Origin: a virus
Lineage: Duplodnaviria; Heunggongvirae; Uroviricota; Caudoviricetes
Length of the DNA: 4,936 bases
IMG/VR virus record: IMGVR_UViG_2648501920_000012
Direction: 5' to 3' (one strand)
Of this stretch, positions 1 to 4,936 are shown piece after piece. Positions within the stretch are counted from its first letter, which is position 1; the number at the start of each line of letters is the position of its first letter. The position numbers and the translations under genes were made by a program. Under the pieces are notes generated by a model that worked only from the letters and a program-made list of their open reading frames with translations, was not told the origin of the DNA and did not search any database.

Positions 1-2514
1 ACCTGTAATGCGTACCTGACCACACAGCGCAAGGCGTGGGATGTGCTCAGTGATTTCTGCTCGGCGATGCGCTGTATGCCGGTATGGAACGGGCAGACGC
101 TGACGTTCGTGCAGGACCGACCATCAGATAAGGTGTGGACCTATAACCGCAGTAATGTGGTGATGCCGGATGATGGCGCGCCGTTCCGCTACAGCTTCAG
201 CGCCCTGAAGGACCGCCATAATGCCGTTGAGGTGAACTGGATTGACCCGGATAACGGCTGGGAGACGGCGACAGAGCTCGTGGAGGATACGCAGGCCATT
301 GCCCGTTACGGTCGTAATGTCACGAAGATGGATGCCTTTGGCTGTACCAGTCGGGGGCAGGCACACCGCGCCGGGCTGTGGCTGATTAAAACGGAACTGC
401 TGGAAACGCAGACCGTGGATTTCAGCGTCGGCGCAGAAGGGCTTCGCCATGTACCGGGCGATGTTATTGAAATCTGTGATGATGACTATGCCGGTATCAG
501 CACCGGTGGTCGTGTGCTGGCGGTGAACAGCCAGACCCGGACGCTGACGCTCGACCGTGAAATCACGCTGCCATCCTCCGGTACCACGCTGATAAGCCTG
601 GTTGACGGAAGTGGCAATCCGGTCAGCGTGGAGGTTCAGTCCGTCACCGACGGCGTGAAGGTAAAAGTGAGCCGTGTTCCTGACGGTGTTGCTGAATACA
701 GCGTATGGGGGCTGAAGCTGCCGACGCTGCGCCAGCGCCTGTTCCGCTGTGTGAGTATCCGGGAGAACGATGACGGTACGTATGCCATCACCGCCGTGCA
801 GCATGTACCGGAAAAAGAAGCCATCGTGGATAACGGGGCGCACTTTGACGGCGACCAGAGCGGCACGGTGAATGGTGTCACGCCGCCAGCGGTGCAGCAC
901 CTGACCGCCGAAGTCACCACAGACAGCGGGGAATATCAGGTGCTGGCGCGATGGGACACGCCGAAGGTGGTGAAGGGCGTGAGCTTCCTGCTTCGCCTTA
1001 CCGTGGCAGCGGACGACGGCAGTGAGCGGCTGGTCAGCATGGCCCGGACGACGGAAACCACATACCGCTTCAGGCAACTGGCGCTGGGGAACTACAGGCT
1101 GACAGTCCGGGCGGTAAATGCGTGGGGGCAGCAGGGCGATCCGGCATCGGTATCGTTCCGGATTGCCGCACCGGCAGCGCCGTCGCAGATTGAGCTGACA
1201 CCGGGGTATTTTCAGATAACCGCCACGCCCCATCTTGCCGTTTATGATCCGACGGTACAGTTTGAGTTCTGGTTCTCGGAAAAGCGGATTGCGGATATCA
1301 GGCAGGTTGAAACCACAGCCCGCTATCTTGGCACGGCGCTGTACTGGATAGCTGCCAGTATCAATATCAAACCGGGCCATGATTATTATTTTTACATCCG
1401 CAGTGTGAACACCGTTGGCAAATCGGCATTTGTGGAGGCTGTTGGCCAGCCGAGTGATGATGCATCCGGCTATCTGGATTTTTTCAAAGGCGAGATAGGG
1501 AAAAGCCATCTGGCTCAGGAGCTGTGGACGCAGATTGATAACGGTCAGCTTGCGCCTGACCTGGCTGAAATCAGGACGTCCATTACGGATGTCAGCAATG
1601 AAATCACGCAGACCGTCAATAAGAAACTGGAAGACCAGAGTGCGGCAATTCAGCAGATACAGAAGGTTCAGGTTGATACAAATAATAACCTGAACAGCAT
1701 GTGGGCTGTGAAGCTGCAGCAGATGCAGGACGGACGCCTTTATATCGCGGGTATTGGTGCCGGTATTGAGAACACCCCTGACGGCATGCAGAGTCAGGTG
1801 CTGCTGGCGGCGGACAGGATTGCGATGATTAATCCTGCGAATGGCAATACAAAGCCGATGTTTGTTGGGCAGGGCGATCAGATATTCATGAACGAAGTGT
1901 TCCTGAAATATCTGACGGCTCCCACCATTACCAGCGGTGGCAATCCCCCAACGTTTTCACTGACACCTGATGGTCGACTTTCTGCGAGAAATGCGGATAT
2001 CAGCGGTAACGTGAATGCGAACTCCGGGACGCTCAATAATGTCACGATTAACCAGAACTGTCGGATTCTGGGAAAACTGTCAGCTAACCAGATTGAAGGT
2101 GATATTGTCAAAACGGTGGGAAAAGCCTTTCCGAGAAATGGCAGTTATGCCAGCGGTACAATAACGGTCACTGTGTACGATGACCAGGCTTTTGACCGTC
2201 AGATAGTCGTCCCCCCCGTTCTGTTTCGCGGTGGTAAGCATGAAAACTTCAACAGCAACAACCAACAGTCATACTGGTATTCAACCTGTAAGCTGCAGGT
2301 GCTGAAGAACGGACAGGAAATCTTTCAGCAACCCGCGACGGATGTCAGCAGGGTATTTTCATCAGTCATTGATATGCCTGCCGGACACGGCCATGTCACC
2401 CTGACTTTCAATGTTTCTTCATATGGTGCAAATAACTGGACGCCAACGACCAGTATCAGCGACCTTCTTGTTGTCGTGATGAAGAAATCAACAGCCGGCA
2501 TCAGTATCAGTTGA
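1..2514 (+). CDS. J: Host specificity protein J (tail tip / central fibre), 5'-partial; the gene begins upstream of the window
   Basis: Frame 1 is open from base 1 to the TGA at 2512-2514 (the ORF track's M at 43 is internal). The translation [44 protein letters not shown]... matches the central part of lambda gpJ almost residue for residue as I recall it, through ...[21 protein letters not shown]. From about nt 1490 onward it is divergent but still alignable to the lambda J C-terminus (conserved blocks [43 protein letters not shown]). Codon usage is coherent over the whole length. Confidence 0.95.
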
Positions 2515-2533
2515 ATTTTAAAACCCAAATTCG

Positions 2534-2560
2534 GGCACCAGAAATGGTGCCTTTTTTATT
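2534..2560 (+). terminator. Candidate rho-independent terminator or attenuator between J and the fibre gene
   Basis: Perfect 6-bp inverted repeat GGCACC (2534-2539) / GGTGCC (2546-2551) around a 6-nt loop AGAAAT, followed directly by TTTTTTATT (2552-2560). It begins 20 nt after the J stop codon. Confidence 0.5.
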
Positions 2561-2563
2561 TGT

Positions 2564-2567
2564 GGAG
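2564..2567 (+). promoter_or_regulatory. Shine-Dalgarno (GGAG) for the tail fibre gene
   Basis: GGAG at 2564-2567, 5 nt upstream of the ATG at 2573. Confidence 0.5.
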
Positions 2568-2572
2568 TGAAT

Positions 2573-4594
2573 ATGGCAGTACAGATTTCAGGTGTGCTGA
2601 AAGACGGTGCAGGAAAACCGATACAGAACTGCACCATTCAGCTCAAAGCAAAACGTAACAGCACCACAGTTGTGGTGAACACGGTGGCCTCAGAAAATCC
2701 GGATGAAGCCGGACGTTACAGCATGGATGTTGAGTATGGCCAGTACAGCGTCGCCCTGCTGGTTGAAGGTTTTCCGCCTTCACATGCCGGGACCATCACC
2801 GTGTATGAGGATTCTAAGCCGGGGACATTGAATGATTTTCTGGGCGCTGCAACAGAAGATGATGTTTGTCCGGAGGCACTGTATCGTTTTGAAAAGATGG
2901 TGGAAGAGGCGGCACGCAACGCTGAAGCCGCCTCTCAGAGCGCAGCGGCAGCAAAGAAATCAGAAACAGCAGCGGCATCGTCCAGGAACGCGGCGAAAAC
3001 ATCAGAGACGAATGCAGGTAACAGCGCGAAAGCGGCAGCTTCTTCAAAAACAGCCGCACAAAACGCAGCAACAGCGGCAGAACGTTCAGAGACAAATGCC
3101 CGTGCGTCAGAAGAAGCCTCCGCAGACAGTGAAGAGGCTTCCCGCCGTAATGCAGAGTCAGCCGCTGAAAATGCCGGAGTCGCCACCACAAAAGCGCGGG
3201 AGGCCGCAGCAGACGCAACAAAGGCCGGGCAGAAAAAGGATGAGGCTCTGTCGGCAGCGACACGAGCTGAAAAGGCGGCAGACCGCGCAGAAGCCGCAGC
3301 GGAAGTGACTGCAGAGCCCTGTGCGAATATAGTGCCGCCGCTGCCTGATGTGTGGATACCGTTTAACGATTCACTGGATATGATTACGGGTTTTTCGCCA
3401 TCTTATAAAAAGATAGTTATTGGTGACGATGAAATAACAATGCCAGGCGACAAGATTGTTAAGTTTAAACGTGCTTCAACAGCAACGTATATTAATAAGT
3501 CCGGCCAACTCAAGCTTGCTGAAGTTGACGAACCGCGATTTGAGCGCGATGGCTTATTGATTGAAGGACAGAGGACAAATTATCTGAGGAACTCAAATAA
3601 ACCAGACTCATGGACTGTTCATTCCGCACTGAATAAAACATTTGGCACTGATAAACAGGGGTTCAATTATGCCACGGTGACACCCACGGAAAGTATAGTG
3701 GGAACAACAGGTGGCTATACTGTGCATGGTGTGGTTGCAGCAGACAGATTCCCGCTGGCAAGTGGTGAATGTTTCACTTTTTCGTGCCGGGTTAAAGGCG
3801 CTAAAGCACGATGCAGGTTAAGAGTTTCAGTTATTATTGGTGGAACAGATACCTTCTCTGCTGACTCTTATCTTGATCTGGATACCCGGATCGCAACAGT
3901 AAGCGGTAATACATCCCTTATAACAGCCAAAGCTGAACAACAGGGCGAGTGGACCTACTATGAGGCCACTTATACAGCTAATACGGACATTGATACCGTT
4001 AACTGTGCTTTTTATATGACAAATAAAATAAGTAATGAGCCATTCTATGATGACTCAACATTAACCATGACGACGCCGCAAATTGAACTGGGCAATACGG
4101 CATCGTCATTTATTGTAACTACAATGCCAACAACACGCGCAAGTGATGTAGTTACTATCCCATCGCAGAATAACCTGTCAACACGGCCTTTTACGGTATT
4201 GTGCGAAGTAAGCAGGAACTGGAGTACACCGCCCAATGTTGCGCCAAGGATATTTGATGTTGGAGGGCACAGTATTGATGATAATTATTTATCGCTGGGG
4301 TTTGTTGCAACAGGAAAGATAAGCGCCAACGTAGGAATGGTTCAGCCACAAATTGCCTCAGATGGAGAAAGGTTCATTGTGGGTGTGAGAGCTAAATCTG
4401 ATTTATCAGTAAATGCAATATGCAATGGTAATTATACAACAAACCTTAATGGTAAAATATTTGGAGTTACAGCAACATCGTACCGGTTTGGTGGGCAGAC
4501 CGCAGCAGGAACGCGTCATTTGTTTGGACACATCAGAAATTTCAGAGTCTGGTTTAAAGAATTAAATGACAGGCAAATCAAGGAGGCAGTATGA
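2573..4594 (+). CDS. stf: Side tail fibre protein, lambda Stf-like N-terminus with a divergent distal (probable receptor-binding) domain; 673 aa
   Basis: ATG at 2573 is preferred over the in-frame GTG at 2567 used by the ORF track, because of the GGAG spacing and because lambda Stf begins MAVKISGVLKDG. The first ~100 residues (MAVQISGVLKDGAGKPIQNCTIQLKAKRNSTTVVVNTVASENPDEAGRYSMDVEYGQYSVALLVEGFPPSHAGTITVYEDSKPGTLNDFL) are near-identical to lambda Stf from memory. An Ala/Ser/Glu-rich low-complexity shaft follows (SETNA-type repeats), then a ~430-aa AT-rich C-terminal region I cannot match to lambda Stf. Stop TGA at 4592-4594. Confidence 0.9.
   Translation: MAVQISGVLKDGAGKPIQNCTIQLKAKRNSTTVVVNTVASENPDEAGRYSMDVEYGQYSVALLVEGFPPSHAGTITVYEDSKPGTLNDFLGAATEDDVCPEALYRFEKMVEEAARNAEAASQSAAAAKKSETAAASSRNAAKTSETNAGNSAKAAASSKTAAQNAATAAERSETNARASEEASADSEEASRRNAESAAENAGVATTKAREAAADATKAGQKKDEALSAATRAEKAADRAEAAAEVTAEPCANIVPPLPDVWIPFNDSLDMITGFSPSYKKIVIGDDEITMPGDKIVKFKRASTATYINKSGQLKLAEVDEPRFERDGLLIEGQRTNYLRNSNKPDSWTVHSALNKTFGTDKQGFNYATVTPTESIVGTTGGYTVHGVVAADRFPLASGECFTFSCRVKGAKARCRLRVSVIIGGTDTFSADSYLDLDTRIATVSGNTSLITAKAEQQGEWTYYEATYTANTDIDTVNCAFYMTNKISNEPFYDDSTLTMTTPQIELGNTASSFIVTTMPTTRASDVVTIPSQNNLSTRPFTVLCEVSRNWSTPPNVAPRIFDVGGHSIDDNYLSLGFVATGKISANVGMVQPQIASDGERFIVGVRAKSDLSVNAICNGNYTTNLNGKIFGVTATSYRFGGQTAAGTRHLFGHIRNFRVWFKELNDRQIKEAV
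2930..3300 (+). repeat. Low-complexity Ala/Ser/Glu-rich repeat region inside the fibre gene (shaft segment)
   Basis: Translation is dominated by degenerate repeated units (AAASSRNAAKTSETNAGNSAKAAASSKTAAQNAATAAERSETNARASEEA...). GCN-rich DNA of this kind produces long spurious ORFs in other frames and on the opposite strand (2832..3308 +, 2935..3189 -, 2814..3263 -). Confidence 0.6.
4579..4585 (+). promoter_or_regulatory. Strong Shine-Dalgarno (AAGGAGG) for the small ORF downstream of the fibre gene
   Basis: AAGGAGG lies inside the last codons of stf, a few nt upstream of the ATG at 4591; that ATG overlaps the stf stop as ATGA (4591-4594). Confidence 0.55.
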
Positions 4595-4693
4595 AAGATT
4601 TAACTTTGAAATTTCCTGGTAACAGAGAGTTTAAATCCTTCCTGTCATCTCTTGACTGGGAGGAGGATGAAGACCTCCAGAATAAACTGTTAG

Positions 4694-4716
<23 letters not shown>
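4591..4716 (+). pseudogene. Small ORF translationally coupled to the fibre gene, truncated by IS5; the native part is 4591-4693 (34 codons), the last 7 codons and the stop are read from the IS5 left end
   Basis: ATG at 4591 overlaps the stf stop (ATGA) and follows a strong SD. Translation is MKDLTLKFPGNREFKSFLSSLDWEEDEDLQNKLL, then GKVRTSP* encoded by the IS5 terminal sequence GGAAGGTGCGAACAAGTCCCTGA. I do not recognise the family; by position it could be a fibre assembly/chaperone gene or the first cargo gene. Confidence 0.6.

Positions 4717-4936
<220 letters not shown>

What the first reader, a model, noticed from the sequence alone, without database searches (positions are those of the whole stretch)
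4579..4716. Translationally coupled gene downstream of the fibre is disrupted by IS5 after codon 34
The small ORF has a strong SD (AAGGAGG) and an ATGA stop/start overlap with stf, which argues it is a real gene co-expressed with the fibre. Genes in this position are typically fibre assembly chaperones or the first cargo/moron gene. Its product reads MKDLTLKFPGNREFKSFLSSLDWEEDEDLQNKLL and then continues into IS5 sequence with a stop after 7 more codons, so the native protein is truncated. I do not recognise the N-terminus as lambda Tfa. If it is a fibre chaperone, this prophage may be unable to assemble functional side fibres.
Basis: partly seen in the sequence, partly recalled or inferred. 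Interest (0 to 1): 0.55.

Follow-up and report, generated by a model that had tools for sequence, protein, structure and literature searches.

The report
IS5-broken partner gene of tail fibre
A small phage gene that always sits directly after one type of tail-fibre tip has been cut by an IS5 jumping element after codon 34; the insertion is ordinary, but the gene belongs to a widespread, unstudied family that probably helps build or complete the fibre.

Summary
An ORF starts at 4591 with an ATGA overlap on the fibre stop and AAGGAGG at 4580-4586. It reads 34 native codons, crosses into IS5 at 4694 after a TTAG target, and stops 7 codons later.

The window is a whole draft contig that ends inside IS5, so the far junction and the target duplication could not be seen. 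Uninterrupted alleles settle the main point: the gene is 92 codons in more than 500 complete E. coli genomes and in free phages. Phage 1H12 is identical to window 250-4693.

The protein is not lambda Tfa. It has no Pfam, NCBIfam or PADLOC match and falls in PHROG 1361 (unknown function). Its confident predicted alpha/beta fold matches no solved structure.

It is also not prophage cargo. Homologues lie directly after fibre genes in lambdoid phages, Drexlerviridae, Queuovirinae, T5-like phages, rV5-like myoviruses and an environmental phage group. Stop and start almost always overlap. The upstream partner is always the same ~420-residue fibre C-terminal module, carried on unrelated stalks.

My best reading is a fibre-tip accessory factor (chaperone, or a small fibre subunit), here a null allele. 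The effect on the fibres is untested.

The parts
1..2514 (+). 3' part of the central tail-tip gene J (C-terminal 837 codons; runs off the window start)
   Evidence: Pfam Phage-tail_3, Ig_J, Phage_Tail_Tip and Ig_GpJ_C on the called product; annotated gpJ in L001/L002.
2573..4594 (+). Side tail fibre gene stf, 673 codons, intact
   Evidence: PF08400 phage_tail_N, E 3e-67; PHROG 1419 tail protein; identical to the 1H12 tail protein; residues 1-94 match PDB 9e7m 'Tail fiber protein'.
3329..4591 (+). Fibre C-terminal module (Stf residues 253-673): conserved ends and a hypervariable middle containing a GTA-head-spike-fibre / CBM-like domain. This is the constant partner of the small gene.
   Evidence: NF048003 at residues 329-523. 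The same module is on other stalks: 45% identity in a non-lambdoid prophage, 31-33% in an environmental phage group, and 218 phage records in all. Segment analysis.
4580..4586 (+). Shine-Dalgarno AAGGAGG, 4 nt before the ATG
   Evidence: Read directly. A purine-rich GGAG/GAGG stretch lies at the same place in most of the 16 homologous contexts aligned; phage 21, lam_L021 and the three environmental contexts show only a weak or no match.
4591..4594 (+). ATGA stop/start overlap between stf and the small gene
   Evidence: A 4-nt or 1-nt overlap is kept in 15 of 16 contexts.
4591..4693 (+). Native 5' part of the 92-codon fibre-partner gene (codons 1-34 plus the first base of codon 35)
   Evidence: 100% identical to the intact alleles WP_000654172.1 / YP_009909515.1.
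4591..4716 (+). Truncated hybrid ORF, 41 codons: 34 native plus GKVRTSP read from the IS5 end
   Evidence: The exact product is recorded on 18 contigs, against at least 1000 for the intact protein.
4690..4693 (.). TTAG, the IS5 target (left copy of the expected 4-bp duplication)
   Evidence: Directly precedes the IS5 terminal repeat. The intact sequence reads ...CTGTTAGTCGATG. P1 mod::IS5 has an annotated TTAG duplication. The right copy was not observed.
4694..4936 (+). IS5, transposase-proximal end (first 243 of 1195 bp; runs off the window end)
   Evidence: 1 mismatch in 243 bases to the annotated IS5; thousands of IS5 hits in E. coli genomes.
4762..4936 (+). 5' part of the IS5 transposase gene ([18 protein letters not shown]...)
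   Evidence: Translation; annotated 'IS5-like element IS5 family transposase' in the hits.

Best explanation
The window is the late-operon end of a phage 21/1H12-type lambdoid (Jouyvirus) prophage of E. coli: J, then the side tail fibre gene stf, then a 92-codon gene. An IS5 copy has inserted at a TTAG inside that gene.

Shown:
- The insertion leaves only residues 1-34 plus 7 IS5-encoded residues. In the confident model these 34 residues are strand 1 and two helices.
- It removes the long beta-hairpin (residues 33-67) and the conserved C-terminal P-L-R-E-W tail. The allele is almost certainly null.

Inferred function:
- The 92-aa protein is acidic (pI 4.05), has no signal peptide or hydrophobic segment evident in the sequence, and so is probably cytoplasmic.
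- It is made in step with the fibre, by ribosomes that terminate at the stf stop and restart at the overlapping AUG.
- It acts on the fibre's C-terminal ~420-residue lectin-type tip module. It most likely binds the module's conserved framework (residues 253-330 and 641-673) rather than the hypervariable receptor-binding middle.
- I consider a dedicated folding or assembly chaperone most likely (about 45%). A small subunit that stays on the fibre, for example as a cap or docking piece, is next (about 30%).

Inferred consequence:
- Side fibres are missing, misfolded or incomplete.
- The downstream 97-codon membrane-protein gene is probably silenced by polarity.
- The phage can still infect through J, with changed adsorption or host range.

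The confidence of 0.6 is for the whole statement. The truncation and null-allele part alone is about 0.9, 'acts on the fibre tip module' about 0.75, and 'chaperone specifically' about 0.45.
For: Truncation:
- Sequence anatomy.
- Intact 92-codon alleles occur in 552 complete genome records and 12 phages at 99% identity or more. Free phage 1H12 is identical over window 250-4693.
- The truncated form is rare: 18 contigs against at least 1000. All junction contigs are identical from position 1756 onwards, which suggests a single event.

Real, folded protein:
- 22 full-length E. coli/Shigella homologues, down to 53% identity, were aligned from the 45-cluster hit list. A further 85 profile hits in 1.84 billion representatives go down to about 30% identity.
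- AF2 model with pLDDT 90.7. Structural matches only to uncharacterised tailed-phage proteins.

Fibre linkage:
- The gene directly follows a protein carrying the same C-terminal module on unrelated N-terminal stalks or backbones: a non-lambdoid prophage, an environmental phage group in 73 of 80 loci, Drexlerviridae, Queuovirinae and T5-like phages, Vequintavirus and Lindwurm.
- Record counts are about equal: roughly 200 with the small gene against 202 with a near-full module.
- Overlapping stop/start in 15 of 16 contexts.
- No promoter-like or terminator-like site between stf and the end of the 97-codon gene in the intact phage.
- Small-protein divergence tracks the conserved ends of the module (rho 0.70 and 0.78), not the variable middle.
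- RefSeq names the IrisVonRoten homologue bas32_0023 'tail fiber protein'. It lies between the proximal fibre Gp22 and the T-shaped fibre Gp24 (PMC11990801).
Against: - No experiment or paper addresses this protein.
- The co-divergence signal is confounded by phylogeny and by physical linkage of residues 641-673 to the small gene.
- Beta-sandwich lectin-type domains do not obviously need a chaperone.
- The gene is broken in many independent ways in other E. coli genomes. That fits dispensability in lysogens and says nothing for a function.
- The right IS5 junction was never seen, so an accompanying deletion or rearrangement cannot be excluded.
- Polarity on the 97-codon gene is an inference.
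Confidence: 0.6

Rival explanations
1. The 92-aa protein is a structural subunit of the fibre rather than a chaperone. It would stay bound to the tip module in the virion, as a cap or as the docking piece for a second, distal fibre protein.
For: In virulent phages a second fibre gene usually follows it: a Peptidase_S74 protein in L013-L016, the BASEL 'putative lateral tail fiber chaperone' genes of 225 and 510 aa, a 576-aa tail fibre in EC142, and the T-shaped Gp24 in IrisVonRoten. RefSeq names the IrisVonRoten homologue 'tail fiber protein'. Branched two-protein fibres are known in T5-like phages (PMC4728585).
Against: In the lambdoid contexts, including this window's relatives, no second fibre gene follows; a 97/98-aa membrane protein does. 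No virion proteomics or cryo-EM entry contains the protein. The branched fibres of DT57C use a different fibre type.
Confidence: 0.3
2. The protein acts in the infected cell on something other than fibre assembly (for example an acidic anti-defence or regulatory protein, or a transient blocker of the new fibres' receptor binding). On this view it is merely carried next to the fibre module.
For: It is small and very acidic (pI 4.05, 22 D+E), like some anti-restriction proteins. A 'transient chaperone cap' idea exists for other fibres (cited in PMC11990801).
Against: No PADLOC or Pfam match. Linkage is to one specific fibre module across at least seven phage lineages, with overlapping stop/start. 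That is hard to explain without a physical or functional tie to that module.
Confidence: 0.12
3. It is a lysogenic-conversion (moron or cargo) gene of the prophage, like the sitABCD operon further downstream.
For: It lies at the end of the late operon, just before the sitDCBA cargo in intact relatives. Morons are common at that position in lambdoid phages (PMC6969025).
Against: Present in many strictly virulent phages. Translationally coupled to the fibre, with no promoter-like site of its own. Present in lambdoid prophages that lack sit.
Confidence: 0.03
4. The IS5 junction is an assembly artefact, with a contig end wrongly joined to a repeat, and the gene is intact in the real genome.
For: The window is a short-read draft contig that ends in a repeat. 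No complete genome shows the junction.
Against: The identical junction is found in two independent isolate assemblies and several metagenomes from different projects. The breakpoint is exactly at the IS5 terminal repeat, next to a TTAG (IS5's usual YTAR-type target, from established knowledge), as in P1 mod::IS5.
Confidence: 0.03

Closest known systems
Lambda Tfa / Mu-type tail fibre assembly proteins (Pfam PF02413 Caudo_TAP)
   Same: Encoded immediately downstream of the side or long tail fibre gene in the same late transcript. Travels with the fibre's C-terminal receptor-binding part when fibres are shuffled between phages.
   Different: No sequence match. Half the size (92 against about 175-195 aa). 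A different predicted fold with no PDB relative. The partner fibre tip is a lectin/CBM-type module, not the lambda/T4 gp37-type tip.
IrisVonRoten (Bas32) gene bas32_0023 and the other BASEL homologues (bas06_0036, bas22_0023, bas55_0027)
   Same: True homologues (47-50% identity; profile E 1e-14 to 1e-35) in the same position after the lateral fibre gene, with overlapping stop/start.
   Different: These are virulent phages, and most have a second fibre gene after the small gene. All are annotated hypothetical except bas32_0023 ('tail fiber protein'). None has been tested.
Intramolecular chaperone domains of fibres and spikes (Peptidase_S74, as in T5 pb1 and K1F endosialidase)
   Same: A dedicated folding aid tied to one fibre C-terminus.
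   Different: That aid is a covalently attached, self-cleaving C-terminal domain. Here a separate gene is used, and the Stf C-terminus has no S74 match.
IS5 insertions in phage genes (P1 mod::IS5; phage 434 nmpC::IS5)
   Same: Same element, the same 4-bp TTAG-type target in P1, and simple gene disruption.
   Different: A different target gene. Only one junction is visible here.

Membership tests
IS5 (IS5 family insertion sequence) | Terminal inverted repeat GGAAGGTGCGAA... and near-identity to reference IS5 | tested here: met
   242 of 243 bases identical to the annotated IS5 of P1 mod::IS5, starting at the terminal repeat.
IS5 (IS5 family insertion sequence) | Encodes the IS5 transposase (InsH/Ins5A) | tested here: met
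   The N-terminal 58 residues [12 protein letters not shown]... read from 4762. The hits are annotated IS5 family transposase. The rest lies beyond the window.
IS5 (IS5 family insertion sequence) | 4-bp target duplication (YTAR) flanking both ends | tested here: inconclusive
   The left TTAG is present at 4690-4693. The right end is not in the window, in any complete E. coli genome, or in the JGI metagenome contigs.
Lambda Tfa / Caudo_TAP tail fibre assembly proteins (PF02413) | Sequence match to the Caudo_TAP profile | tested here: not met
   Pfam scan at E up to 1 gives only a sub-threshold LUD_dom hit. NCBIfam gives none.
Lambda Tfa / Caudo_TAP tail fibre assembly proteins (PF02413) | Gene immediately downstream of, and co-inherited with, the fibre's C-terminal part | tested here: met
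Lambda Tfa / Caudo_TAP tail fibre assembly proteins (PF02413) | Required for fibre folding or assembly and binds the fibre tip | not testable with these tools
   Needs genetics, biochemistry or multimer modelling. None is available or published.
PHROG 1361 / 92-aa fibre-partner family (uncharacterised) | Full-length match to the family profile | tested here: met
   Intact allele: phrog_1361 E 1.6e-39 over residues 1-91. The window's 41-aa remnant scores E 4e-11 on the N-terminal third only.
PHROG 1361 / 92-aa fibre-partner family (uncharacterised) | Intact beta-hairpin core and C-terminal P-x-R-x-W motif (invariant or near-invariant N64, R66, P87, R89, W91) | tested here: not met
   The window copy ends at native residue 34. 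These residues are missing.
Prophage moron / lysogenic-conversion cargo | Restricted to temperate elements, with its own promoter and terminator | tested here: not met
   Present in virulent phage families. No promoter-like or terminator-like sites around it.

The most novel reading that the evidence does not exclude
The 92-aa protein would be the founding member of a previously unrecognised, fold-distinct class of tail-fibre partner protein (chaperone or tip subunit). This class is dedicated to a lectin-type fibre-tip module related to the GTA head-spike fibre domain. The two genes move together as a cassette between temperate and virulent siphoviruses and myoviruses of enterobacteria and beyond. 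The IS5 allele in this window would then be a ready-made natural knockout in a phage otherwise identical to the inducible phage 1H12.
Probability: 0.45. Interest if true: 0.5.

Novelty: new variant of a known kind. Interest (0 to 1): 0.3.

Why it matters
The IS5 hit is routine prophage decay and matters little in itself.

The disrupted gene is more useful. It marks a two-gene cassette (fibre-tip module plus small partner) found in about 200 cultured coliphage and Salmonella phage genomes, including widely used BASEL and T5-like phages, and in more than 500 complete E. coli genomes such as ST131-type strains. In almost all of them the small gene is labelled 'hypothetical'.

If the partner is needed to make a working fibre, anyone swapping these fibre tips to retarget phages or phage-derived delivery particles must move it too. 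Host-range predictions based on the fibre gene alone would also misjudge strains carrying broken partner alleles.

Tried and rejected
- Right IS5 junction. I looked in complete E. coli genomes with a junction-spanning query (no place with 80% coverage or more) and in phage genomes. The exact-protein look-up returned only contigs that end in IS5. Two exact-pattern scans of JGI metagenome contigs gave 0 hits.
- C-terminal fragment. No called fragment exists, because the modelled junction has no start codon in frame.
- rV5 virion proteomics. rV5 itself carries a different allele at this locus, with no small ORF after gp27, so this was dropped.
- mEpimmI proteomics paper. It concerns a different phage group and does not mention the protein.
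- DT57C branched-fibre paper. It describes a different, S74-type fibre and no small gene.
- Database identifiers of the protein occur in no paper.
- Single-sequence AF2 of the fibre C-terminal module failed (pLDDT 34). No fold claim is made from it.
They were redone with P0001 as the first row.
- The search for related loci with the broad alignment failed for lack of a conserved stretch. It was redone with a subset, which returned only one environmental phage group.
- My early note that the ST131 fibre gene is broken was wrong. The ORF has no internal stop.
Full report
**What is in the window**

The window carries three late-operon features on the + strand:
- the 3' part of the tail-tip gene J (1-2514);
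- an intact 673-codon side tail fibre gene (2573-4594; PF08400 N-terminal domain, E 3e-67);
- a short ORF at 4591-4716.

The ORF's ATG overlaps the fibre stop (ATGA, 4591-4594). The ORF reads MKDLTLKFPGNREFKSFLSSLDWEEDEDLQNKLL, then GKVRTSP and a stop.

From 4694 the sequence is IS5. It begins with the terminal repeat GGAAGGTGCGAACAAG and matches the annotated IS5 of phage P1 mod::IS5 at 242 of 243 bases. The transposase start [12 protein letters not shown]... is at 4762. The four bases before IS5 are TTAG, the same target duplicated in the P1 example.

**Origin, and why the far end cannot be seen**

The window is the whole of contig LJXY01000079.1 from draft assembly GCA_001306675.1. The exact 41-residue product is recorded on 18 contigs, from two isolate assemblies and several metagenomes. 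All 8 junction-carrying contigs that were retrieved stop inside IS5, as short-read assemblies do at repeats.

These contigs are identical to the window from position 1756 through the junction. They differ only inside J. This suggests one ancestral insertion, with the J variation coming from recombination or from assembly mixing between co-resident prophages.

I could not find the right-hand junction:
- no complete RefSeq E. coli genome carries the left junction;
- the predicted right junction (IS5 end + TTAG + TCGATGAAATTGG) is absent from the JGI metagenome contigs;
- the modelled junction has no in-frame start codon, so no C-terminal fragment would ever be called as a gene.

The target duplication, and the absence of an accompanying deletion, therefore remain unverified.

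**The intact gene**

The 444 bases before IS5 are 99-100% identical in 552 complete E. coli genome records and 12 isolated phages. In these the ORF continues to 92 codons...NKLLVDEIGFTYTETGVTEEGEPVCVRNDGYFVNIRILDDLFDVSVFSDYVVELETPLREWS.

Free phage 1H12 (Jouyvirus) is identical to window 250-4693, with no mismatch in 4,444 bases. Phage 21 has a 92%-identical copy.

In these relatives the gene is followed by a 97-codon membrane-protein gene and then, on the other strand, the sitDCBA iron/manganese transporter cargo. No uninterrupted homologue has a stop near codon 35.

**What the protein is not**

It has no Pfam match, so it is not lambda-type Tfa. It also has no NCBIfam or PADLOC match. It belongs to PHROG 1361, 'unknown function'. 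No paper in the library mentions its identifiers.

**What the protein looks like**

It is 10.7 kDa and very acidic (pI 4.05). The sequence shows no evident signal peptide or hydrophobic segment.

AlphaFold2, run on an alignment of 19 family members, gives a confident model (pLDDT 90.7). The model has strand 2-8, helices 11-20 and 27-32, and a long hairpin 33-47/53-67. A less well-defined C-terminal tail carries the conserved P-L-R-E-W motif.

Fold searches found no solved relative:
- Foldseek against PDB: best E 0.04;
- PDB sequence profile search: nothing.

The only real structural matches are uncharacterised proteins of uncultured tailed phages.

The IS5 allele keeps strand 1 and the two helices. 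It loses the hairpin and all C-terminal conserved residues (N64, R66, P87, R89, W91). I consider it a null allele.

**The conserved company it keeps**

This is the main result. A profile search of 1.84 billion representative proteins finds only 85 relatives. They reach about 30% identity and share the pattern M-[KR]-D-x-x-L-[KR]-F ... G-Y-[FH]-V-N-[IL]-R ... P-x-R-V-W-A.

Wherever I could examine the context, the gene lies directly after a large fibre protein:

| Context | Upstream partner | Identity of partner module to window Stf |
|---|---|---|
| Other lambdoid prophages without sit | Stf of 673/678 aa | 47% over residues 253-673 (lam_L017) |
| Non-lambdoid temperate siphophage, between head and tail genes | 671-704-aa protein | 45% over residues 253-673 only |
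| Environmental phage group (73 of 80 loci) | ~556-aa protein | 31-33% over residues 256-670, E about 1e-46 |
| Cultured Drexlerviridae, Queuovirinae, Dhillonvirus, T5-like, Vequintavirus | lateral or side tail fibre | 34-68% over residues 253-673 for the five compared |

The N-terminal stalks of these partners are unrelated, but the C-terminal ~420 residues are always the same module.

Record counts roughly match. About 200 phage records have a small-gene homologue (144-159, plus about 35 rV5-like), against 202 with a near-full-length module.

The fibre stop and the small gene's start overlap by 4 or 1 bases in 15 of 16 contexts. Most have a purine-rich ribosome-binding stretch. The intact phage has no promoter-like or terminator-like site between stf and the end of the 97-codon gene.

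The module contains a domain that NCBI calls 'GTA head spike fibre' (NF048003, residues 329-523) and has a weak CBM_4_9 match. It looks like a sugar-binding tip.

**Which part of the fibre it goes with**

Across 15 fibre/partner pairs, the module has conserved ends (residues 253-330 and 641-673, mean identity about 0.6) and a hypervariable middle (about 0.3).

Partner divergence tracks the ends (Spearman 0.70 and 0.78). It is uncoupled from the middle: KarlJaspers shares 83-88% identity with 1H12 there, but only 49% in the partner. This fits a factor that recognises the module's framework rather than its receptor-binding surface.

The correlation is confounded by common descent, and by the physical adjacency of residues 641-673 to the small gene. 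I treat it as suggestive only.

**Mechanism, and how sure I am**

Shown:
- the gene is real and conserved;
- it is translationally coupled to the fibre;
- it is tied to one fibre-tip module;
- it is truncated here by IS5.

Inferred: it acts on that module. I rank the possibilities as follows.
- A separate folding or assembly chaperone: about 45%.
- A small subunit that remains on the fibre: about 30%. In virulent phages a second fibre gene usually follows it, and RefSeq calls the IrisVonRoten copy 'tail fiber protein'. It sits between the proximal fibre Gp22 and the T-shaped Gp24 described in PMC11990801. In lambdoid phages, however, no second fibre follows.
- Some other role in the infected cell: about 12%.

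The claimed consequence, no functional side fibres, is a reasonable prediction and no more. Lambda PaPa lacks side fibres and still grows (established knowledge), so the prophage is not necessarily dead.

The gene is also broken in many other ways in other genomes, with foreign tails after residues 32, 48, 53 and 73, foreign N-termini, and a recurrent +1 frameshift form. That fits ordinary decay of a gene that is not needed in the lysogen.

**Verdict**

- the truncation and 'not Tfa' are right;
- 'chaperone' is plausible and now backed by strong comparative linkage, but untested;
- 'moron' is wrong.

The IS5 event is ordinary. The modest interest lies in the disrupted gene: an uncharacterised, fold-distinct partner of a widespread fibre-tip module.

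Noticed in passing
L001 4342-4620 (the intact allele; proteins P0013, P0014, P0015, P0025, P0027, P0040, P0041, P0044, P0045): The 92-codon gene is disrupted in many independent ways in other E. coli genomes. There are different foreign C-terminal tails after residues about 32, 48, 53 and 73, and several foreign N-termini. It appears to be a frequent casualty of prophage decay or a hotspot for insertions.
   Followed up: partly
L001 about 4504-4623 (+1 frame inside the 3' half of the intact gene): The +1 frame is open for 39 codons and encodes a strongly hydrophobic peptide (MTVILSTFAFLMTCLMFLYSLIMSWSWKHRFGNGAERRK), ending at the start of the next gene. Five frameshift variants of exactly 96 aa (P0018, P0022, P0038, P0039, P0042) read into it. 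It may be only a composition effect. Whether it is an overlapping gene was not tested.
   Followed up: no
window 1-1755 (gene J) against L004-L011: Contigs sharing the identical IS5 junction differ from the window by 9-52 substitutions, all inside J at positions up to 1755, and are identical from 1756 onward. This points either to recombination in J after a single insertion or to assembly mixing between co-resident lambdoid prophages.
   Followed up: partly
L001 2324-4345 (ST131-type strain 4/1-1): PGAP annotates the fibre gene as two partial pseudogenes, but the 673-codon frame has no internal stop. This is an annotation artefact, not a broken fibre.
   Followed up: yes
L001/L002 4633-4926; L017-L020 (98-aa gene after the small gene): A 97/98-aa membrane protein (PHROG 1443, unknown function) follows the small gene in lambdoid prophages, whether or not sitABCD is present. 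It is absent from the virulent-phage contexts. In the window's strain it would lie beyond IS5 and is probably subject to polarity.
   Followed up: partly
L001/L002/L003 about 5018-8444: Intact relatives carry the sitDCBA iron/manganese ABC transporter on the opposite strand just downstream. This cargo is reported on 70% of infant-gut lambda-like phages (PMC6969025). The window's contig ends before it.
   Followed up: no
window 2573-2854 (Stf residues 1-94): The fibre's N-terminal 94 residues match a solved chain named 'Tail fiber protein' (PDB 9e7m/9mgh, E 1.5e-49). The virion-attachment end of this fibre therefore has an experimental structure, while the tip and the partner do not.
   Followed up: no
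window 4747: There is a single-base difference (G against A) from the reference IS5 in the untranslated leader, before the transposase start.
   Followed up: no
window 124-1509 (-), 2814-3263 (-), 2832-3308 (+): Long alternative-frame and antisense ORFs (461, 149 and 158 aa) run through J and through the alanine-rich coiled-coil stalk of the fibre gene. They are most likely composition artefacts and were not examined.
   Followed up: no
phage records MG065652, MG065653, MG065692, MG065683, OR847733, PQ520124: Records labelled Campylobacter, Listeria or Enterococcus phage contain coliphage fibre cassettes or IS5 at high identity. They are probably mislabelled or contaminated entries.
   Followed up: no
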